IMG/VR virus record: IMGVR_UViG_3300020193_000015
Reading direction: 5' to 3' (one strand)
Length of the DNA stretch: 64,000 bases
From: a virus
Within the stretch, counting starts at the first letter, position 1. Every line of letters starts with the position of its first letter. Both the position numbers and the translations under genes were made by a program. Shown here one piece after another: positions 14,972-64,000 of this stretch. The notes under the pieces were generated by a model. It worked only from the letters and a program-made list of their open reading frames with translations, was not told the DNA's origin and ran no database searches.

Positions 14972-15958
14972 ATGGAATTCAAGACCTTTATAGAAAATCA
15001 ATATAAACTTTTTGGCAAAGATGCTCAAAGAATTACAACAAATGAGCTAAAACTAGTCTTTTATGAACTAAAGACTCTCATTGGTAACTCTTTCCCAGAA
15101 ATGGAACTTACAAGGTGGCTTCCCGCTAAAGAAGATCACGGCGATATTGATATCCTTGCTCATTCTCGGCAAACACCCGTCAAAGACATTCTTGCAGCTA
15201 ATTTAGGCAACCAATTAGTCAAATTCAGCAAGAATGGCAACGTCAATTCTTTTTTATTCAAAAGCAATCTAATCAACAAAGTCGTTCATGTCGATCTTAT
15301 TACTTCTCCACCCGATTTGATGGATGCAAAACGTAATTATTATGCCTTTGGTGATGCCAGCTTTGTAATAGGTGTTATATCTAAAAAACTACATTTTAAA
15401 TATGGGACAGAAGGGTTCTTTAAGAGATTTAAGGATCAAGGAACAATCTGGCACGATATTCCAGTTACTAATAATATGAAAGAAGCCATGTTGATTCTTG
15501 GCTTTTCTAATCCTGACCAATTTAATCAAATTAAGACTAATGATGATACTGTAGCTTTTATCGCTACCAATCCTTTTATTGATTCCAGTTGGTTTATGCA
15601 TGAGAATTTAATTTCTAAAGATAAACAGAGCCAGAATCGCAGAAAAGGCGCTGATTATATTCTTGATAAACTTAAAAGCTTAAATTTAAAAGGTAAAATT
15701 ACAGATGAAGACTATTTCTTTAAAACCCTTTATCCTGAAAAATATAAAGAAGTTGAAGAACAAAAGGTAGCATTAAATCAAAAAGCATATGTTAAAGCTT
15801 CCAATTATAATGGTTATTGGTTAATGAATAAATTTGGCATTAAGCCTGGACCGCAAATAGGAAATATATTAAGATTAATGACTCAGAAGTATGGCGATCA
15901 ATTGGATAATGTGCCAGAACCAGAAGCGATAGAGTTTGTCAAGGGAATTATGAAATGA
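14972..15958 (+). CDS. hypothetical protein (possible minimal nucleotidyltransferase fold)
   Basis: HGDIDILAH resembles a Gx..DxD motif; weak. Confidence 0.4.
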   Translation: MEFKTFIENQYKLFGKDAQRITTNELKLVFYELKTLIGNSFPEMELTRWLPAKEDHGDIDILAHSRQTPVKDILAANLGNQLVKFSKNGNVNSFLFKSNLINKVVHVDLITSPPDLMDAKRNYYAFGDASFVIGVISKKLHFKYGTEGFFKRFKDQGTIWHDIPVTNNMKEAMLILGFSNPDQFNQIKTNDDTVAFIATNPFIDSSWFMHENLISKDKQSQNRRKGADYILDKLKSLNLKGKITDEDYFFKTLYPEKYKEVEEQKVALNQKAYVKASNYNGYWLMNKFGIKPGPQIGNILRLMTQKYGDQLDNVPEPEAIEFVKGIMK

Positions 15959-16374
15959 CCTTTGAGGAAATTAAGAAAGCATGGTTCAAAGCGAAGATAG
16001 GATTTGTTGATGAGTCCGATCTTAGGTTGATTAAATCTGAAGTGTTTGATGATCGAATATGTATGTTTTATAAGTGTCCATGCGGTAGTGATCATTATGC
16101 AATGCGTTTTATGGTACAAGAAGGTTATTCGCAATATCCATCATGTATTCTCAATTGTTTTGTTAATAATCATCAATGGGGTATAAAGGTTGCTGATGTT
16201 GCCGCTATTATAAAAGAAGAGGAAGAAAAGTATCTTCGACTTATAGAACGGGCACCAAAGATTATCAAGAAAGTTATTGCCCAACGTGGAATGTCGGAGG
16301 AAACATTATTTTTCTTGGAAAATACACATGGCATTGATCGTGAAATGGTTTCTATTATAGAATTAAATCTATAA
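15955..16374 (+). CDS. hypothetical protein
   Basis: ORF track. Confidence 0.4.
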   Translation: MTFEEIKKAWFKAKIGFVDESDLRLIKSEVFDDRICMFYKCPCGSDHYAMRFMVQEGYSQYPSCILNCFVNNHQWGIKVADVAAIIKEEEEKYLRLIERAPKIIKKVIAQRGMSEETLFFLENTHGIDREMVSIIELNL

Positions 16375-16415
16375 ATCCTATTGTAAAACAGAGATAAATA
16401 TGTTATATTTAACTA

Positions 16416-17588
16416 ATGCTTGTAGCAGAACGACATTATATACAAGAAACACTTGAAATTGTCCGACTATGTACATTAAGCAAAGAACTTTACAATAAAT
16501 GCAATTTCTTGATGAGGCAAGCATGGTTTATAAATGAAAAATTACCTAATATAAATTTGCTTGTTCGAGAGACAAAGCCATTAGACTGTTACAAAAACCT
16601 TCACAACACCAAAACAGCAGCACAAACAATACGTAAATGTCTTGTAGATTGGGCAAACTTCCTCAAAACCCTGAAAGCATACAAGAAAGACCCAACAAAA
16701 TTCAAAACTAGACCTAAACCGCCTTATTATAAAAATAAACTCACACAAATTATATTCTTTAATGAAACTATCAAGAAAAGACCATTGAAACAAGATGTAA
16801 TTACCCCAACGAACAATCTATTTTCAATTAAAAGTGACATTAAAGAATTTAAGCAAGTAATGATTACTCCTAAAACATTTGGTTTTATAGTAGACATTCA
16901 ATATGAAAAAGAAGTCAAGAAAGTAAAAGTAAGCAAGAATAGGTTTGCCTGTATAGATGTTGGTGTAAATAATTTAGCTACGATAACTTCAAACCAACTG
17001 GAGCATCCCATATTGGTTAATGGTCGCATACTAAAAAGCATCAATAGATTCTATAATAAAAAACCTAATAAGAATAATAGTAGGAAACGTTATTTCCGTA
17101 TTGAGAATTATTTCCATCATGCTTCTAAATTTATAATTGATTTATGTATTAAACATAAAATTGGCAAAATCATTATCGGTAAGAATGATGGTTGGAAGCA
17201 ATTTTCTAAAATACGAAAAGTACAAAACCAAAATTTTCAATATATTCCTTTTTATAAATTTTTAGATAAGATTAAGTATAAAGCAACATTAGCGGGCATT
17301 GAAGTTATATTTACTGAAGAATCATATACAAGTAAAGCAAGTTTCCTTGACCATGATTCAATACCAACTTATAAAAAAGGCAATAAACCTCCTACTTTTT
17401 CTGGTAAAAGAGATAAAGGAATGTATAGAACATTTAGACCTATTCATGCTGACGTGAATGGAAGTTTAAACATAGGATGTAAAGTATTCGGGGATAAAGT
17501 CTACAAGGCTTTCCCTGATAGGAGCATTGCCGCAATGCCAGTACGAATTAATCCATTGAAGATTTTTGCATATAACAGCAAAAATTAG
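16416..17588 (+). CDS. tnpB: TnpB-like (IS200/IS605 OrfB / Cas12-ancestor) RuvC-fold protein, 390 aa
   Basis: RuvC-I FACIDVGVNNLATIT; RuvC-III HADVNGSLNIGCKVFG; TnpB-like C-terminus; no CxxC..CxxC zinc finger; RuvC-II glutamate not evident (IIIGKND). Confidence 0.65.
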   Translation: MLVAERHYIQETLEIVRLCTLSKELYNKCNFLMRQAWFINEKLPNINLLVRETKPLDCYKNLHNTKTAAQTIRKCLVDWANFLKTLKAYKKDPTKFKTRPKPPYYKNKLTQIIFFNETIKKRPLKQDVITPTNNLFSIKSDIKEFKQVMITPKTFGFIVDIQYEKEVKKVKVSKNRFACIDVGVNNLATITSNQLEHPILVNGRILKSINRFYNKKPNKNNSRKRYFRIENYFHHASKFIIDLCIKHKIGKIIIGKNDGWKQFSKIRKVQNQNFQYIPFYKFLDKIKYKATLAGIEVIFTEESYTSKASFLDHDSIPTYKKGNKPPTFSGKRDKGMYRTFRPIHADVNGSLNIGCKVFGDKVYKAFPDRSIAAMPVRINPLKIFAYNSKN

Positions 17589-17814
17589 ATTAATTCTCAA
17601 ACTTAGATTTATTTATTTCTAGGAACGGTGGACTATTCAATGTTCTGAGTGTAAAAGACATACTTGGCCCAATTTAGGTGTCAACTGCCCTGCTGGGTGC
17701 GATGTTGCTCTTAGTGCATGTTACGCTTGGTGGTATGGATATCAAAATGAAAAGTCTTTTGATGCCGTAAAATTGATATACAGTAAAGTTAATTGGTTAA
17801 AATCTATATAATGC

Positions 17815-18567
17815 ATGCTTTCTTTGCATGCTAGGAAAAAAAGTCCTCCAGTACCGCCAATTACATTAAGAGAATATTATTTTTCACAAGATAACCAGGC
17901 ATTTCTATTAAGTGGGCAAGTTGATTTCAATAAGATGATGGCCGGTATCAATCTTCCTATAAATTCTCACATCTTAGAAATAGGTTGTTGTACAGGTAGA
18001 GTGTTACGCAATTTTTGGCCTGTATTGAAAAAATATAGAGTTGATGGTTGTGATATAGAACCGGCATATGTTCAATGGTGTAGAGAACATATGAATCCAA
18101 TGCGATTCTATTTTCCTGAAGAAATTCCTTTAAATACTTATGATTTTGTTTATTGCCAATCTGTATTTACTCATATTCCAAATCCAATTCCAGATTTATT
18201 TAAAATAAGGAAATTTCTCAAGAAAGATGGTTTATTTTATGTAACAATTCATGATGAAGTTGATTTAGAAAGAATAAAGGGATTTCCAGAGAAAGAACAG
18301 TTACGTCGTTTTATCGAAGACTATGTTAATTTAAATGAATTTCATGTGTCCACAATCTATTCAATTGCTCTAGAACAAGGAAGAAATTGTAAAGTTTTCT
18401 ATAACAGAGACTTTTTTGTAAAATTAGCTTCTTATGCTGGATTTAAATTAATAAAAATAGTTGACAAAGCACATAGAAATGGCACTACGCAAACTGGACT
18501 GTTATTCCGTACATATCTTCAACAAAAATCAGAGGTTTGCATTATTTTCAAAAAAAGTGTCATTTGA
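17815..18567 (+). CDS. class I SAM-dependent methyltransferase
   Basis: ILEIGCCTGR motif I. Confidence 0.5.
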   Translation: MLSLHARKKSPPVPPITLREYYFSQDNQAFLLSGQVDFNKMMAGINLPINSHILEIGCCTGRVLRNFWPVLKKYRVDGCDIEPAYVQWCREHMNPMRFYFPEEIPLNTYDFVYCQSVFTHIPNPIPDLFKIRKFLKKDGLFYVTIHDEVDLERIKGFPEKEQLRRFIEDYVNLNEFHVSTIYSIALEQGRNCKVFYNRDFFVKLASYAGFKLIKIVDKAHRNGTTQTGLLFRTYLQQKSEVCIIFKKSVI

Positions 18568-30847: not shown

Positions 30848-33800
30848 ATGTCGCAATTTAAGACAGTTGAGAATTTTAAGGATATTTTAATGTTAAAAGA
30901 AAAAACTACTTTGCGATCCTATCAGCTGCTTCTATTAGATAATCATGATTTAGTAGAAAAGACGATAGATGTTTATACAAAAGGAGCTTCTGCTTGGTTG
31001 GACTTTTGGCTTACTGTTTTGGGCGGTATAGAATTTGAGATGATTCCATTATCTCCTCTTAGCAGTTATTGTATTACTAAAAAATTAAAGAGGAAATCCC
31101 AAGAAGATAAAGAAATATTTATTCCTATTAGCGAAGAAGCTTTATTGTTTGGCTGTTGGTTTTCTTTAGAAACGAATAGCAATTCGCCATTCATTATTTC
31201 TGTTCAAGATGTTTGGAACAAGTTCAAATCTTATCTGCCGAATAATGTGAAAATAAGCTACAATTGGGAAAGAACTATCAAAGCACAAATTAATTCCTTT
31301 GTGTCTGAGAATACTTGTTGGGTAGATAGAAGAAAAGCATTTCAAGACCTATCATTTAAAATTAATGTTGCTGATCTTGTTTGTAAAAAAGATTTTTGGC
31401 TTAATAAAGATGTGGATAGCAAATTGTATATGAGAAGTGCCTTGGGGCAATGGTGGAATGATGGAACAAAATCAGATTGGGTTAATCTTAAAATTAAATG
31501 TGAACAGTCTATAAAATTTATCGAACAAGAATCAGATATCAGAAATGCAAAAACAAAAATTCTACAATCTCTTGGATTGCCAGATATAGCAGAAGCTAAA
31601 GAAATTGGCAAAGCTTATGGCAAAAAAGGAAAGCCTTCCAGAGTGTTTATTAAATTGGAAAAATTAACAGAAGATACTACCAAAGACCAATTGGTTAAGG
31701 AATTTCAAGAAGAAATTGTAAACGCAGAAGAACATGTTGCTTTTAAGCGTTGTCCCTGGCATGCGAAAATTAGAGAAAACATTGAAAAAGCAATAGGTGT
31801 AAGTTATTTTAATGAAAAAGGTAATAGTAGTCAAAATAATTTTGGAGAAATGGGCAATCTTGCTCTTGAAAAAATTAAAAGTTGGAAATCTAATTTTTTT
31901 AATGTCTTAGGAGAAAGATATCATAACTGTAAATCTGATTTCCATGATTCAGAGGTAAAAGAATGGTTTGAAGAATACAAAAAAACAAACAAACAACTTA
32001 GAAATAGCAGCCTTTCAGGACTTGAAAAAGTATTTGATTTACTAGATAACAAGTCTTTTGAAGATGCTATTAAAGAAGCCCAAAAATCCTACAACATTCT
32101 TGGAAGAAGATTTGGAGACGCTAACTTTTTCAACTTTTTAGGCAATAAAATTCAGTCCAGAAAGGACAAAGATTGGTTGAAATTAATACGAGAATATGAT
32201 AATTGGGATAATGTAAATTACAAATTTATAAATCATAAAAGTCCAAGACTTAAGCATTTTGGGGATGATCACTTAGCCACTCCTAGATTTGGGGAGTCAA
32301 GACCAACAGGCAATATCAAAAGCACAACTGGAAATAGTCACTCAATTACATTGAATGTTTTCGATGGCAAATCATTCAAACTGACTAAAATTAATTCTGC
32401 TTGCAAAAGATTGTCTAATGAAATTAAAGATAATCAATCAATTAGACAGACTAAGTTATCTGGAAAAATCTTTGAAAACTATCGAATTCTTCCTAAGAGT
32501 TTAGTTAAAAAGGGTGGACTTAAACTTTGTAAACAAAATGATAAATGGTATGCCCATCTAACAGTCAATTTGCCAGTATTTGAAAAAGCTTCATGGCAAA
32601 AATTGATGAAAACCGGCACCATAATAATGAGTATAGACCCTGGTATTAGAAGTTCTATATCATATACTATATTTGAAATATTTGAATGTGATCGAGATAC
32701 AGATTATTTTATTGAAAATGGCATTACTCATGTGAAAATACATTCATGGGAAGATCATAGTGGTACTAAGTTTAAAGTGCCTCATAATAATTTGTGGGTT
32801 AAATTGTTGGAATGGGGACATATTCGTGATCTACAACCTATTGGCGAAAATGGTTATCGTCAGTGCAGATTAGATGGTGGAACAAACACCAATTTAGACT
32901 CAGAAGAAATAGAATTTTGGAAATATCTTTTAATAACTGGTGTTGAGCAAAAAGACATGCCTGATCCTTTGCCAAAAAGGTCTGAATATTCTAGAATTAT
33001 TGCAAATTTAATTAACAAGTGGTATACAAACAAATCAAAAGAAATTACAGATAAGGTTAAACAACTAAATATTAATGATCCTGTAGAGTTTTCAAAAACT
33101 TTACAACATGTAAGAAAAGAAAGCGATTTATCATCAGAATTATTGATAAAGGCGTCCCAAATATTATTTGTAAATAATTCAGATAAAATTGGGAGAGGCG
33201 GGTTATCCTATGCTAGAATTAAGATGCTCCAAACACTTTCTTCTGCTTGTAATAAATTCTTAAAAGTTAAAGAAAATAATGCAGAAATTATTGAATTTCA
33301 GAATTTTCTTAGAAAGAAAATTAATGCCATAAGAACGGAACGAGTAAGAATTACTGTAAACAAAGTTTTGCATGAAGCTGTCAATAACAAAGTAAATCTA
33401 ATTCTATATGAAAATACCCAACTAAAATCTTCTTCCAGTTCCCCCAGAGGTCTTAATAGAAGTATAACATCCTGGTGCCCGTCAAAAGTAATCGAAGAAT
33501 TGAAAAAACAAATAGATTTGTTGCCAATTTCTATAATGGGAGTAAACTCTGCTTATACGTCTCATAACTGTTTTGTAACTTGCAAGAAAAAATGTCGTTA
33601 TGATAAAGTTCATTTAGATGATCTTAATATTGAGCCTTGGAAAGAAAGAATAACCGATATTTTTACAAAAAAACAATTAAGCTTAACTGATTGTTTGTTG
33701 AAAAAAGGTTGGGAAAATTTCCTGAAAGAAAATGACTTGATGAGCTACAAACAAATACCTGAATTTGTTAAAAACAAAAAAGCTTTTTGTTTAGTTCCCT

Positions 33801-33910
33801 CCAGGACAGGAAAATTGTTTGTTACAGAAATTGGAGAATTGAATGCTGATATCGCCGCTGCTGCTACAATAGGAATGAAAGGTCTTGCAATAATCCTATC
33901 CAAAGCTTAA
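30848..33910 (+). CDS. cas12: type V CRISPR effector, Cas12-like (1020 aa; size and repeat suggest the Cas12i-like compact class)
   Basis: split RuvC motifs in TnpB/Cas12 order: RuvC-I MSIDPGIRSS (D about 32636), RuvC-II LILYENTQL (E about 33410), Cys-containing stretch SHNCFVTCKKKC, RuvC-III ELNADIAAAATIGMKGL (D about 33849); a 26-repeat array follows directly. Confidence 0.75.
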   Translation: MSQFKTVENFKDILMLKEKTTLRSYQLLLLDNHDLVEKTIDVYTKGASAWLDFWLTVLGGIEFEMIPLSPLSSYCITKKLKRKSQEDKEIFIPISEEALLFGCWFSLETNSNSPFIISVQDVWNKFKSYLPNNVKISYNWERTIKAQINSFVSENTCWVDRRKAFQDLSFKINVADLVCKKDFWLNKDVDSKLYMRSALGQWWNDGTKSDWVNLKIKCEQSIKFIEQESDIRNAKTKILQSLGLPDIAEAKEIGKAYGKKGKPSRVFIKLEKLTEDTTKDQLVKEFQEEIVNAEEHVAFKRCPWHAKIRENIEKAIGVSYFNEKGNSSQNNFGEMGNLALEKIKSWKSNFFNVLGERYHNCKSDFHDSEVKEWFEEYKKTNKQLRNSSLSGLEKVFDLLDNKSFEDAIKEAQKSYNILGRRFGDANFFNFLGNKIQSRKDKDWLKLIREYDNWDNVNYKFINHKSPRLKHFGDDHLATPRFGESRPTGNIKSTTGNSHSITLNVFDGKSFKLTKINSACKRLSNEIKDNQSIRQTKLSGKIFENYRILPKSLVKKGGLKLCKQNDKWYAHLTVNLPVFEKASWQKLMKTGTIIMSIDPGIRSSISYTIFEIFECDRDTDYFIENGITHVKIHSWEDHSGTKFKVPHNNLWVKLLEWGHIRDLQPIGENGYRQCRLDGGTNTNLDSEEIEFWKYLLITGVEQKDMPDPLPKRSEYSRIIANLINKWYTNKSKEITDKVKQLNINDPVEFSKTLQHVRKESDLSSELLIKASQILFVNNSDKIGRGGLSYARIKMLQTLSSACNKFLKVKENNAEIIEFQNFLRKKINAIRTERVRITVNKVLHEAVNNKVNLILYENTQLKSSSSSPRGLNRSITSWCPSKVIEELKKQIDLLPISIMGVNSAYTSHNCFVTCKKKCRYDKVHLDDLNIEPWKERITDIFTKKQLSLTDCLLKKGWENFLKENDLMSYKQIPEFVKNKKAFCLVPSRTGKLFVTEIGELNADIAAAATIGMKGLAIILSKA

Positions 33911-37450: not shown

Positions 37451-37638
37451 TAACAAGTGATGATCCTCTTACTGCAAAATTGATAAAGCTTTTGAACCGG
37501 GCACATGATATAATATGGCTCAATGCTTTAGAACCTATTTATAAAGAAGAGGTTTTGTCACAAGCAGAAATTGAAGCTTTTCTGATGGAAGTTGAGGAAG
37601 TAATATATAAGCCAAACCCAAAAGCCCCTGTAGTTTAA
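37429..37638 (+). CDS. hypothetical protein
   Basis: ORF track. Confidence 0.3.
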   Translation: MVREKLMITSDDPLTAKLIKLLNRAHDIIWLNALEPIYKEEVLSQAEIEAFLMEVEEVIYKPNPKAPVV

Positions 37639-37697
37639 TTGTGCAAAACGTGCTACTTTAGATAGCTAAGATGTGGGTTCGAATCCTGCCAGGGGCG
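37624..37697 (+). tRNA. tRNA with anticodon UUA (candidate ochre/amber suppressor tRNA)
   Basis: manual cloverleaf: acceptor GCCCCTG/CAGGGGC, D-stem GTTT/AAAC, anticodon stem TGCTA/TAGCT with loop CTTTAGA, variable loop AAGAT, T-arm GTGGG-TTCGAAT-CCTGC, discriminator G; unusual G at position 37. Confidence 0.55.
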
Positions 37698-49569: not shown

Positions 49570-49640
49570 GGCCCCATAGCTTAAGAGGAAAGCAGGGTGC
49601 TTATAACGCCAAGACGGTAGTGCGACTCTACCTGGGGCTA
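49570..49640 (+). tRNA. tRNA-like gene, anticodon UAU by manual fold (atypical T-loop TGCGACT, G1-U72)
   Basis: acceptor GGCCCCA/TGGGGCT, D-stem GCTT/AAGC, anticodon stem GGTG/CGCC with loop CTTATAA, T-stem GGTAG/CTACC; a TATATAAT promoter-like box lies just upstream. Confidence 0.4.
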
Positions 49641-62975: not shown

Positions 62976-63197
62976 ATGTCGAAAACGGAGTATTTGCTAA
63001 GAAGTGTGTTGCGGAATGTGAATCAGATTCAAGCAGATGATGAATTCACAAAAAATAGGCTATCCGATATATCCTATTTTACCAAAGCAGCTATAATTGC
63101 CCAAGAATTCCATGAACAATATACTGCTGATGACCAAAGGGGCCGGGATAAACTACGTGATAGGAGCAATTATTTTTTGAAGACCATTGACCATTAG
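62976..63197 (+). CDS. hypothetical protein
   Basis: ATG preceded by AAGGACAAGGAAA; the ORF track starts at 62904. Confidence 0.35.
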   Translation: MSKTEYLLRSVLRNVNQIQADDEFTKNRLSDISYFTKAAIIAQEFHEQYTADDQRGRDKLRDRSNYFLKTIDH

Positions 63198-63579
63198 TTG
63201 CCAACCACCTGTGCCGGTTTTTGTTTGTGCATATTGGTCAATTAGTTGTTTTATTTGTAATTGGATTGGTCCGGTTGAACTCGGCGTGTTGTCAAGTTGT
63301 TGGGCGGCTGTTTTATTGGTATTGATAGACTTGTGGAGCATTTTTATGAAGCAAAAATTCAGTGTAGCGGAAGACACGACAGGCGACAAAGTGCATAAAA
63401 TCATGGTGGAAAACTGCCCTACTTCTGGGCTTCAACGAACAGAACAAATAGGTATGTATTTTTGGAATAGAATTTGGCTAATGCGTCCATGTACTTTAAG
63501 TGAGATAGAACATATAGTTAAAGTTGTCAAAGACTTAGAAGACCAACTTTGGGGTGTGGGAGAAACGTGCTGCAAGTAG
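63187..63579 (+). CDS. hypothetical membrane protein
   Basis: ORF track. Confidence 0.3.
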   Translation: MTISCQPPVPVFVCAYWSISCFICNWIGPVELGVLSSCWAAVLLVLIDLWSIFMKQKFSVAEDTTGDKVHKIMVENCPTSGLQRTEQIGMYFWNRIWLMRPCTLSEIEHIVKVVKDLEDQLWGVGETCCK

Positions 63580-63833
63580 AGCGTCACCATCACAAAGGCA
63601 ACGATCAGATCGTCGCCCTCTGCAAGACCAGCAAGGAGTTGTACAAGCAAGTAGTTATCACGCCCAAGACCTTCGGGTTCGTGATTGACGTGCAGTACGA
63701 AGTACCCGATCAGCCAAAAGGTGAGAAACATAAAGGTGTTTGTGCCATAGGCAGGAAAGTAATCAGGGACGAGGATGTTTCAAGGAACGGTTTGTTTCCG
63801 TCATCGTCCAATAGGAGAATTGCCAGTAATTAA
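63570..63833 (+). pseudogene. degraded TnpB-like fragment
   Basis: KQVVITPKTFGFVIDVQYE matches KQVMITPKTFGFIVDIQYE of the 16416 TnpB-like gene; the RuvC-I Asp is lost (GVCAIG); composition is more GC-rich than the surroundings. Confidence 0.45.
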
Positions 63834-63987
63834 TGAATGTGTAATATGTAGAGAACCATTTTACATGTGGCTTTGTTCAGATATCGTATGGCATGGACTC
63901 CCAAAAAAACTATGGAAAAAAACAATCTGTGAAAACTGTTTTGTGAGTAAAATCAATGGCTGTAAAACTAAAAAAGCGTGTCGTTAG
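63775..63987 (+). CDS. hypothetical Cys-rich protein
   Basis: ORF track. Confidence 0.3.
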   Translation: MFQGTVCFRHRPIGELPVINECVICREPFYMWLCSDIVWHGLPKKLWKKTICENCFVSKINGCKTKKACR

Positions 63988-64000
63988 AGAAACAAATGAA

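What the first reader, a model, noticed from the sequence alone, without database searches (positions are those of the whole stretch)
16416..17810. TnpB-like RuvC protein lacking the zinc finger and possibly the RuvC-II glutamate, with a 220-bp non-coding tail; a second decayed copy near 63570
The 390-aa ORF has clear TnpB-type RuvC-I (ACIDVGVNN) and RuvC-III (HADVNGSLNIG) segments. The usual CxxC..CxxC zinc finger between II and III is absent: YTSKASFLDHD has no Cys. The expected RuvC-II glutamate position reads IIIGKND. No TnpA is nearby. The 17589..17814 region downstream is non-coding and could encode an omega-RNA-like guide. This could be an active RNA-guided nuclease variant or a nuclease-dead derivative repurposed as an RNA-guided regulator. 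It is also a relative of the Cas12-like effector in the same genome. A diverged fragment at 63570..63830, with different base composition, shows a second, older acquisition.
Basis: partly seen in the sequence, partly recalled or inferred. Interest (0 to 1): 0.7.

Follow-up and report, generated by a model that had tools for sequence, protein, structure and literature searches.

The report
Phage TnpB nuclease with guide RNA
This is an ordinary member of a large, already-described branch of transposon-derived RNA-guided nucleases (TnpB) that naturally lacks the zinc finger and uses a relocated catalytic glutamate; it sits with its guide RNA in a lake phage, so it is most likely an active enzyme and not a broken or repurposed one.

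Summary
The 390-aa ORF (16416-17588) is real and is a TnpB (NCBIfam guided_TnpB, 125 bits, cutoff 100). Neither is decay. In the query plus 139 cluster representatives (33-61% identity), D181, G255 and D346 are invariant, none has a C4 finger, and 139/140 have Glu at 302. That Glu lies 47 residues downstream, at the end of beta-5. This is the published 'rearranged catalytic site', which is active in TvTnpB and Fanzor2. The nuclease-dead reading is therefore not supported.

The '220-bp non-coding tail' is wrong. The guide-RNA scaffold overlaps the ORF 3' end (about 17488-17629) and ends at a family-wide terminus, GGAACGGT (17629), 41 nt past the stop. It shows strong covariation. The rest (17630-17811) is a start-less, Cys-rich 62-codon frame whose first ~20 nt would be the guide.

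The junction motifs (GGG|...CGG|T) and relatives with an overlapping serine recombinase mark an IS607-type lineage, found mostly in viral contigs. The window copy has no left end and no TnpA. It is present in all 12 sampled contigs, AT-ameliorated and under purifying selection.

The '63570' copy (63562-63792) is a four-block deletion remnant, 91-100% identical to an autonomous IS607 element elsewhere. It is probably the more recent arrival, not the older one.

The parts
16416..17588 (+). tnpB gene, 390 aa. RuvC-I D181 (16956-16958); Gly255 at the canonical RuvC-II Glu position (17178-17180); relocated Glu E302 (17319-17321; E301 at 17316-17318 is variable in the clade); RuvC-III D346 (17451-17453); TNB domain without Cys ligands (aa ~279-353).
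16378..16415 (+). Short 5' leader that weakly resembles the ATG-proximal part of the family left end (TGAAAAACAGG..ATATAAGG). The distal ~75 nt of the LE, with the AAATCT repeats and the GGG|TT junction, is absent.
   Evidence: LE profile: no hit in the window; present in 16 of 22 related loci
17488..17629 (+). Predicted omega/reRNA scaffold. Stem-loops at 17488-17518, 17524-17538, 17545-17596 (inner hairpin 17561-17586, spanning the stop codon) and 17602-17623, followed by the tail AACGGU. The 5' end is not determined; the covariance-model hit spans 17442-17629.
   Evidence: 144.8 bits; z = -2.9; 82.5% paired vs 34-52%; 27 compensatory pairs; 0/500 shuffles; 187 bits; held-out loci 31-190 bits
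17622..17629 (+). Right-end terminus GGAACGGT. All 22 loci end in AACGGT, 40-82 nt after the stop, and diverge completely afterwards. The CGG|T junction is the IS607-type counterpart of the GGG|T left junction.
17630..17649 (+). Predicted guide segment (GGACTATTCAATGTTCTGAG; length of about 16-20 nt assumed by analogy). It has no other match in the window.
   Evidence: guide length by analogy with ISXfa1 and ISFba1
17630..17811 (+). Start-less open frame that begins at the RE boundary (frame opens at 17623): WTIQCSECKRHTWPNLGVNCPAGCDV...KSI*. It is flanking host DNA and not part of the element. It is probably a 5'-truncated or displaced small Zn-ribbon-like gene, with no known homolog.
63562..63792 (+). 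Deletion remnant of an autonomous IS607-type TnpA-TnpB element. It keeps the last 5 TnpA codons plus stop (63562-63579, ETCCK*) overlapping the tnpB GTG (63568). The four blocks 63562-63646, 63641-63710, 63746-63775 and 63777-63792 (RE terminus GTTTCAAGGAACGGT) are 91-100% identical to L020.

Best explanation
The locus is a non-autonomous IS607-lineage TnpB element: the tnpB gene plus its overlapping omega/reRNA. Its TnpB belongs to a large clade, found here mostly in viral contigs, that never has the C4 zinc finger. In this clade the RuvC-II glutamate has moved from beta-4 (Gly255 here) to the end of beta-5 (Glu302), giving the triad D181-E302-D346.

Shown:
- Family membership.
- Clade-wide conservation of the relocated Glu and of the finger-less TNB domain.
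- A conserved, covarying RNA structure that runs from inside the ORF 3' end to a sharp, family-wide terminus at 17629.
- IS607-type junction motifs, and relatives with an overlapping serine-recombinase TnpA.
- Absence of the LE and of TnpA in the window copy.
- Presence of the insertion in every sampled contig of this phage.
- Purifying selection on the protein.

Inferred:
- The mRNA 3' end is processed into a scaffold of about 140 nt plus a guide of about 16-20 nt copied from the right flank (17630 onward).
- The TnpB-RNA complex cuts DNA that carries this target next to a GGG-type TAM (left flanks read (A)AGGG). This would be an allele of the phage genome lacking the insertion.
- The occupied locus is protected because the RE ends in CGG.
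- The break is repaired from the occupied copy, so the element is retained or spread by homing without needing a transposase. Having lost its LE, this copy can no longer transpose.
- By analogy with TvTnpB and the Fanzors, cleavage would be on-target without collateral activity.
For: Family membership: NF040570 125 bits against a cutoff of 100, Pfam and PHROG hits, and Foldseek of the AF2 model against AsCas12f, ISFba1 TnpB, ISDra2 TnpB and ApmFanzor2 at E = 1e-15 to 1e-10.

Catalytic site: Gly255 aligns to the Cas12f catalytic Glu. All 140 sequences have D181/G255/D346, 139/140 have E302, and 0/140 have a C4 finger. The same holds at 35-38% identity for Helicobacter IS607 TnpB, a Nodularia phage TnpB and Bacillus phage G gp662. 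In the model, beta 249-255 ends at G255 and beta 296-300 is followed by E301/E302. This matches the description in PMC10691335. The Glu is about 45-50 residues downstream and about 6 residues before the ZnF position, as in PMC10530073, PMC11832414 and Yoon et al..

Selection: 93/97 and 36/38 conserved positions are kept.

RNA: sharp terminus; profile hit of 144.8 bits ending at 17629; covariation; covariance model recovers held-out and distant loci.

IS607 character: GGG|TT and CGG|T junctions compared with ISXfa1; TnpA(Ser) overlapping tnpB in L020 and L045.

Mobility and context: three copies in one 70-kb viral contig. Virus bias of 27 viral loci against 1 prokaryotic locus. All 12 contigs of this phage carry the insertion.
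Against: - No experiment here shows RNA expression or cleavage.
- No member of this exact finger-less clade is shown to be active in the papers I read. TvTnpB and ApmFz2 share the relocated Glu; ApmFz2 retains a zinc finger, and I did not establish this for TvTnpB.
Model confidence around 300-340 is only 58-71 pLDDT.
- The window protein has R355C at a position invariant in 29 close relatives.
- The LE is missing and the second AGATTT repeat of the RE is degenerate. The copy could therefore be an immobilised relic.
- No empty allele was found to confirm the TAM-target arrangement.
- The promoter scan is at chance level.
Confidence: 0.78

Rival explanations
1. Nuclease-dead, RNA-guided DNA binder repurposed as a regulator (TldR-like). 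On this view, loss of the canonical RuvC-II Glu and of the zinc finger inactivates cleavage, and the protein and its RNA repress a target.
For: Gly at the canonical Glu position and no Cys finger. No LE and no TnpA, so the copy is immobilised, which is often a prelude to exaptation (PMC10691335). Present in every sampled contig.
Against: The substitutions are clade-wide and come with an invariant relocated Glu (139/140) and an intact RuvC-III Asp. The same arrangement is catalytically active in TvTnpB and ApmFz2. By my recollection TldRs lose RuvC-III and C-terminal residues; here nothing is truncated. The guide is just the adjacent flank, and it matches nothing else in the window. Multi-copy, mobile relatives carry the same protein type.
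Confidence: 0.05
2. Inert relic. On this view, an immobilised IS607 fragment happens to keep an open ORF but no longer does anything, and it persists only because deletion has not yet occurred.
For: The LE is absent and the RE repeat is degenerate. There is no TnpA in the window. R355C sits at an otherwise invariant position. A sister element in the same window has clearly decayed by deletion.
Against: A 390-codon ORF stays open in a 30%-GC, stop-rich sequence after extensive amelioration, with 93/97 invariant residues kept. The RNA helices are maintained by compensatory changes, including the window-specific AU-rich versions of each stem. The copy is identical in 12 contigs from several samples. 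In this same genome, unselected copies are rapidly deleted, as the remnant at 63562 shows.
Confidence: 0.13
3. Intron-like or in-frame insertion. On this view, the element interrupts a host gene (15955-16374 plus 17630-17811, same frame) and is removed at the RNA or protein level (IStron-like). Alternatively, the downstream Cys-rich frame supplies the missing zinc finger in trans or by recoding.
For: The upstream ORF, the start-less frame and the next ORF are all in the same frame. The start-less frame has CxxC...CxxxC and begins exactly at the RE. The phage encodes a tRNA with anticodon TTA.
Against: No group I intron or any other Rfam family is found in 15500-18500, even at E <= 10. No uninterrupted homolog exists. 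In 15 of 16 related loci the in-silico excised site does not restore a long ORF. Downstream sequences are unrelated between loci, so no conserved partner exists. The whole clade lacks the finger regardless of context. Standard-code ORFs already tile the window.
Confidence: 0.03

Closest known systems
TnpB clades with a rearranged RuvC-II site ('TnpB2'; RIIr/Ser branches of Altae-Tran et al. 2023, PMC10691335; TvTnpB in PMC10530073)
   Same: The canonical RuvC-II Glu is replaced by Gly. A conserved alternative Glu about 45 residues downstream, at beta-5, completes the triad. The RuvC-III motif is NADxN-like. The omega-RNA is at the 3' end. Some such branches are reported as virus-specific, and ZF loss is reported for 'some large branches'.
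   Different: I could not assign the exact named branch. The paper states ZF loss explicitly only for RIIIr-4, which has a different rearrangement (RuvC-III Asp to His). TvTnpB is IS605/Y1-associated and archaeal. No member of this finger-less IS607 clade has published activity data that I found.
Fanzor2 / pro-Fanzor IS607 TnpBs (ApmFz2, PDB 9b0l; Yoon et al. 2023)
   Same: IS607 association, C-terminally shifted Glu (ApmFz2 D324/E467/D501), a G-rich TAM (TGGG) and a guide RNA overlapping the right end. Foldseek match E = 7e-11.
   Different: RuvC-I here is D-V/I-G and not the defining DPG. ApmFz2 keeps a ZnF and has an N-terminal extension and an NLS. It comes from eukaryotic viruses, not phages.
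IS607 / ISXfa1 (Helicobacter pylori, Xylella fastidiosa)
   Same: Serine-recombinase TnpA overlapping tnpB in relatives (L020, L045). Insertion next to GGG while the RE ends in CGG, which avoids self-targeting. The first base of the right flank is fixed (T here). There are repeats inside the last stem-loop of the reRNA. The Helicobacter IS607-type TnpB (L045) shares the G/TEE/no-ZnF state, and the covariance model hits its 3' end.
   Different: ISXfa1 TnpB has the typical active-site arrangement (Yoon et al.). The window copy has no TnpA and no LE.
ISFba1-type IS607 TnpBs guided by RAGATH-18-derived RNAs (PMC11061315; PDB 8iaz)
   Same: About 390 aa, IS607 family, TAMs AGGAG/GAGGG, similar fold (Foldseek E = 4e-12).
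   Different: ISFba1 has the canonical triad spacing (D194/E290/D371). Its reRNA lies wholly downstream of the ORF and contains RAGATH-18. Here the RNA overlaps the ORF, and Rfam finds no RAGATH-18.
TldR (TnpB-like nuclease-dead repressors)
   Same: TnpB-derived and immobilised, with a guide RNA retained.
   Different: By my recollection, TldRs have lost catalytic residues or the C-terminal RuvC segment and target conserved promoters. Here the triad, including RuvC-III, is intact and the guide is the local flank.

Membership tests
TnpB (RNA-guided endonuclease, NCBIfam NF040570 / Pfam OrfB_IS605 + TNB) | Profile match above the curated cutoff over the full length | tested here: met
   NF040570 125.4 bits (cutoff 100), aa 13-353. 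PF01385 33.7 (cutoff 30.5) and PF07282 35 (cutoff 26.3).
TnpB (RNA-guided endonuclease, NCBIfam NF040570 / Pfam OrfB_IS605 + TNB) | RuvC-I and RuvC-III aspartates | tested here: met
   D181 and D346 are present in all 140 sequences.
TnpB (RNA-guided endonuclease, NCBIfam NF040570 / Pfam OrfB_IS605 + TNB) | RuvC-II glutamate at the canonical beta-4 position | tested here: not met
   Gly255 aligns to the Cas12f catalytic Glu. Gly is present in 140/140.
TnpB (RNA-guided endonuclease, NCBIfam NF040570 / Pfam OrfB_IS605 + TNB) | C4 zinc finger between RuvC-II and RuvC-III | tested here: not met
   No CxxC..CxxC in the query or in any of the 139 representatives; 0-2 Cys in the segment. The TNB profile still matches aa 279-353.
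TnpB (RNA-guided endonuclease, NCBIfam NF040570 / Pfam OrfB_IS605 + TNB) | Structured omega/reRNA at the gene's 3' end, terminating at the element boundary and followed by a locus-specific guide | tested here: met
TnpB (RNA-guided endonuclease, NCBIfam NF040570 / Pfam OrfB_IS605 + TNB) | RNA-guided, TAM-dependent DNA cleavage | not testable with these tools
   Requires biochemistry or an interference assay.
Rearranged-RuvC-II TnpB ('TnpB2'/RIIr-type) | Inert residue (Gly/Pro) at the canonical Glu, plus a conserved alternative Glu about 45-50 aa downstream, just before the ZnF position at beta-5 | tested here: met
   G255 and E302 (+47). E302 is present in 139/140. It follows beta 296-300 in the model and lies 6-7 residues before the position of the first Cys. 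Definitions.
Rearranged-RuvC-II TnpB ('TnpB2'/RIIr-type) | The alternative Glu is spatially adjacent to the two Asp residues | tested here: inconclusive
Only the secondary-structure placement is available.
IS607-family element | Serine-recombinase TnpA upstream of or overlapping tnpB | tested here: not met
   None in the window. Present in relatives L020 and L045, with remnants in L044 and L046. The window copy is non-autonomous.
IS607-family element | Both ends with subterminal repeats, and junctions sharing a GG core (GGG target against CGG at the RE) | tested here: inconclusive
   The RE junction AACGG|T is met. The LE is absent from the window copy. The family consensus, (A)AGGG|TT plus AAATCT repeats, is seen in 16 of 22 loci.
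pro-Fanzor / Fanzor2 | DPG motif in RuvC-I combined with the shifted Glu | tested here: not met
   RuvC-I is CID[VI]G. Definition.
TldR (nuclease-dead TnpB-derived repressor) | Loss of catalytic residues or the C-terminal RuvC segment | tested here: not met
   The triad D181/E302/D346 is present, the protein is full length, and 93/97 invariant residues are kept.
RAGATH-18-guided IS607 TnpB (ISFba1 type) | RAGATH-18 RNA motif downstream of and separate from the ORF | tested here: not met
   No Rfam hit in 15500-18500 at E <= 10. The RNA overlaps the ORF.
IStron (group I intron + TnpB) | Group I intron ribozyme flanking the element | tested here: not met
   No Rfam match at the gathering threshold or at E <= 10.

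The most novel reading that the evidence does not exclude
Having lost its left end and its transposase, this TnpB-omegaRNA pair is kept by selection in a lake phage as a transposase-independent, RNA-programmed homing or exclusion nuclease. During co-infection it would cut relatives that carry the uninterrupted target (GGG-TAM plus GGACTATTCAATG...). It would then either copy itself into them or eliminate them, as a free-standing homing endonuclease gene does, but with a guide RNA. LE-less yet intact copies in several other viral contigs (L012, L024) would be further cases.
Probability: 0.3. Interest if true: 0.55.

Novelty: new member of a known kind. Interest (0 to 1): 0.27.

Why it matters
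It matters little as a discovery. The missing zinc finger and the 'missing' glutamate are the normal state of a large TnpB clade already catalogued in 2023, and the relocated-Glu active site has been validated biochemically and structurally in relatives.

Three points have modest value:
1. It gives a clean, compact natural example (390 aa, scaffold of about 140 nt overlapping the ORF, no Zn ligands) of a clade for which I found no published activity data. That could interest genome-editing screens.
2. It shows protein and RNA co-constraint: the RS[I/L/V]AA[M/R/T] codons covary to keep a hairpin.
3. An LE-less, TnpA-less copy is present in every sampled contig of a phage and is under purifying selection. 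This makes testable the idea that TnpB can persist in phages purely by RNA-guided homing.

Tried and rejected
1. Stop-codon recoding as an explanation for the start-less frame. Standard-code ORFs tile the window and there is no clear gain pattern. The tRNA(TTA) remains unexplained.
2. IStron, group I intron or any known RNA family in the flanks: none found.
3. Global alignment of the full and mini copies was uninformative. Block-wise BLAST to L020 replaced it.
4. A divergent LE in the window: the LE profile gives no hit.
5. An uninterrupted host gene or empty allele. I tried a fused-protein search, all contigs carrying the upstream ORF, three degenerate DNA patterns in the viral and metagenome collections, and an empty-site or flank search for the related element L022. 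All were negative.
6. In-frame insertion into genes as a family habit: rejected, since 15 of 16 excised sites give only short spanning ORFs.
7. A second TnpB fragment after the mini copy (63793 onward): not significant on its own.
8. Measuring catalytic-residue distances: the model coordinates are not exposed to scripts.
9. The profile search of PDB sequences did not bring up ApmFz2 for a residue-level alignment.
10. The promoter/terminator scan was at chance level.
11. Bacterial hosts or partners through the genome collection: only one MAG contig was found.
Full report
OBSERVATION. It contains ACIDVGVNN, IIIGKND, FTEESYTSKASFLDHD and HADVNGSLNIG. It scores above the curated cutoff for NCBIfam 'guided_TnpB' (125.4 bits against 100). 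It also hits Pfam OrfB_IS605 and Cas12f1-like_TNB and the PHROG 506 'transposase' family. An AlphaFold2 model (pLDDT 75.9, pTM 0.63) matches AsCas12f, ISFba1 TnpB, ISDra2 TnpB and mimivirus Fanzor2 at Foldseek E = 1e-15 to 1e-10. In phmmer and hmmsearch alignments to Cas12f structures, the catalytic RuvC-II Glu column is occupied by Gly255, and the Cys ligands of the zinc ribbon are replaced by non-Cys residues.

ARE THESE DEFECTS? No. The protein has more than 7,500 relatives at E < 1e-5, and the best 120 are 57-75% identical and of the same length. In an alignment of 30 of them, D181, G255, N257, E301, E302 and D346 are invariant and none has a Cys finger. An exhaustive HMMER search of 1.84 billion cluster representatives found 3,775 clusters at E <= 1e-3 and 633 at E <= 1e-30. 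Among the query plus the 139 full-length sequences in the top 150 (33-61% identity), all 140 have D181, G255 and D346. 139 have Glu at position 302, position 301 varies (E, N, D, Q and others), and none has a C4 finger. The same state holds at 35-38% identity in three further proteins:
- Bacillus phage G gp662.
- A Nodularia phage TnpB.
- A Helicobacter TnpB whose gene overlaps an upstream resolvase-type TnpA, which is the IS607 arrangement.

In the model, beta-strand 249-255 ends at G255, and strand 296-300 is immediately followed by E301/E302. [quoted passage not shown] The offset of +47 residues matches three published descriptions:
- 'Approximately 45 residues away' (PMC10530073).
- The 50-residue shift seen in the ApmFz2 cryo-EM structure, D324/E467/D501 (PMC11832414).

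That arrangement is experimentally active. TvTnpB cuts dsDNA in a TAM-specific way, and ApmFNuc E467A is dead. Loss of the ZF 'in some large TnpB branches' is also already reported. The window protein keeps 93 of 97 positions invariant in its 29 close relatives and 36 of 38 positions that are >= 90% conserved in distant ones. The best-supported triad is D181-E302-D346. I could not measure inter-residue distances because the coordinates are not exposed.

THE 'TAIL' AND THE GUIDE RNA. I fetched 27 related viral loci plus metagenome contigs. One 70.5-kb viral contig holds three copies, and copy-to-copy homology is confined to the gene plus short flanks. Aligning the 3' ends shows conservation running through the ORF end to a sharp shared terminus...AGATTTCnnGGAACGGT, 40-82 nt past the stop. 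After that every locus is unrelated. A profile of this region hits window 17437-17629 at 144.8 bits (E = 8e-44), ending exactly at 17629.

The window RNA 17470-17629 folds into stems at 17488-17518, 17524-17538, 17545-17596 (with an inner hairpin 17561-17586) and 17602-17623 (-38 kcal/mol, z = -2.9). I projected this structure onto 22 sequences. 82.5% of cells pair, against 34-52% when partners are slid. 27 of 43 pairs show double-sided changes, and 0 of 500 shuffles reach the observed values. RNAalifold independently finds three of the helices. One hairpin lies in the codons for RS[I/L/V]AA[M/R/T], and the amino acids covary (AU:9, GC:7, CG:6, never unpaired) to keep it.

A covariance model built from these sequences recovers the same RNA at the 3' end of tnpB in loci not used to build it (131-190 bits). 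It also recovers it in the Nodularia phage (74 bits), the Helicobacter IS607 element (44 bits, E = 8e-11) and phage G (31 bits). So the omega/reRNA exists, but it overlaps the ORF and extends only 41 nt beyond the stop. Its first ~20 nt (GGACTATTCAATGTTCTGAG) would be the guide, and this sequence occurs nowhere else in the window.

WHAT KIND OF ELEMENT. In 16 of 22 full-length loci a left end of about 110 nt precedes the ATG. It starts at an invariant GGG|TT and carries AAATCT repeats that mirror the AGATTT repeats of the RE. The left junction (A)AGGG|T and the right junction AACGG|T reproduce the published IS607 logic. ISXfa1 TnpB uses a GGG TAM, its RE ends in CGG so the occupied site is not cut, the first base of the right flank is fixed, and the TnpA repeats lie in the last reRNA stem-loop. 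L020 and the Helicobacter locus carry a serine-recombinase TnpA overlapping tnpB, and L044 and L046 keep TnpA remnants.

The close subfamily looks virus-biased: 27 viral loci against one MAG contig among 185,579 species genomes. This scan depends on two peptide motifs. The protein is not a pro-Fanzor, because RuvC-I is D-V/I-G and not DPG. It is also not the ISFba1/RAGATH-18 type, which has canonical spacing D194/E290/D371 and an RNA separate from the ORF, and Rfam finds no RAGATH-18 here.

STATE OF THE WINDOW COPY. The LE profile finds nothing in the window, and only about 37 nt before the ATG resemble the family leader. No serine-recombinase homolog occurs in the 64 kb. The second AGATTT repeat of the RE is degenerate, yet the stem it sits in is preserved. 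The ORF is 30.3% GC, against 45-51% for relatives and 36% for the window. All 12 contigs that carry the upstream ORF (P0121) also carry the TnpB 42 nt downstream. Together with the retained invariant residues, this points to a long-resident, immobilised copy that is still under selection. I infer that it persists by RNA-guided cleavage of insertion-free alleles followed by recombinational repair. This is the homing role established for TnpB (abstracts of PMC10690162 and PMC10705468), and it needs neither an LE nor TnpA. I could not find an empty allele to confirm the TAM-target arrangement.

THE SECOND COPY. 63562-63792 consists of four collinear blocks that are 91-100% identical in DNA to L020, a full element on an unrelated 134-kb viral contig. 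The blocks correspond to the ORF start, the mid-ORF, the RuvC-III region and the RE terminus GTTTCAAGGAACGGT. L020 is an autonomous IS607-type element whose TnpA ends ...SEETCCK*, overlapping the tnpB GTG. The window ORF 63187-63579 ends ...GVGETCCK*, so only the last five TnpA codons survive there. The remnant is 49% GC, like L020 (51%). It is therefore a separate acquisition from a different lineage, about 60% protein identity to the full copy (P0102). It is probably more recent than the full copy and was quickly destroyed by deletions. An apparent further fragment after 63792 is not significant.

ALTERNATIVES.
- A TldR-like dead regulator is disfavoured by the intact, clade-wide triad and the flank-derived guide.
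- An inert relic is possible (no LE, and R355C at an otherwise invariant position) but is disfavoured by ORF and RNA conservation after heavy compositional drift.
- An intron-like or in-frame arrangement, or a trans-supplied zinc finger from the downstream Cys-rich frame, is disfavoured. There is no ribozyme. In 15 of 16 related loci the in-silico excised site gives only short junction-spanning ORFs (2-43 codons against control medians of 37-104). Downstream sequences are unrelated between loci.

VERDICT. The 'possibly dead or exotic' interpretation is not supported. This is a new member of a known kind: a finger-less, relocated-Glu, IS607-lineage TnpB with its overlapping guide RNA, stranded but conserved in a freshwater phage, next to the deletion remnant of a second, autonomous relative.

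Noticed in passing
window 30848-33910 (+): A 1020-aa ORF with no Pfam hit but a weak Cas12b/TnpB-like C-terminal RuvC match (NCBIfam Cas12b E = 1.7e-11 at 43 bits, far below the cutoff of 150; motifs GVNSAYTSHNCF and ELNADIAAAATIG). It shows no significant BLASTP similarity to the 390-aa TnpB. I did not check for a CRISPR array or guide.
   Followed up: partly
window 37624-37697 (+) and 49570-49640 (+): ARAGORN calls a suppressor-type tRNA with anticodon TTA (it would read UAA). A second tRNA is found only by Rfam. TAA is the commonest stop codon in the window, so what this tRNA does is unclear.
   Followed up: partly
window 17623-17811 (+): A start-less 62-codon frame with CxxC...CxxxC begins exactly at the TnpB right end. 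It is in the same frame as the upstream ORF (15955-16374) and the next ORF (methyltransferase, 17815-18567), and it is separated from the latter only by TAA plus one codon. It has no homolog in the protein or DNA collections.
   Followed up: partly
window 17520-17540; alignments A2 and A3: The codons for RS[I/L/V]AA[M/R/T] form an omega-RNA hairpin (GCAUUGCCGCAAUGC and its variants). The first and last variable amino acids covary (I-M, L-R, V-T), so the base pair is never broken in 22 sequences. This is a clear case of RNA structure constraining protein sequence.
   Followed up: yes
L008, L009, L016 (IMGVR_UViG_3300049617_000144): One 70.5-kb viral contig carries three full copies of the element (74-86% DNA identity to each other). 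It also has a serine recombinase gene 2 kb from one of them, on the opposite strand.
   Followed up: partly
L035, L037, L039 (assemblies of the same phage): Three independent assemblies break at the same point, 585 nt into the TnpB ORF. This suggests strain heterogeneity or a repeat at that position in the population.
   Followed up: no
L012, L024 (L023 marginal); viral contigs from the same lake sample series: Other full-length TnpB copies with an intact RE/omega region but no detectable left end. These may be further immobilised-but-intact copies like the window's.
   Followed up: no
window 63793-63990 (+): A second start-less, Cys-rich frame (…NECVICREPFYMWLCSDIVWHGLPKKLWKKTICENCF…) lies immediately downstream of the decayed copy's right end. 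This was read by eye. It parallels the start-less frame after the full copy.
   Followed up: no
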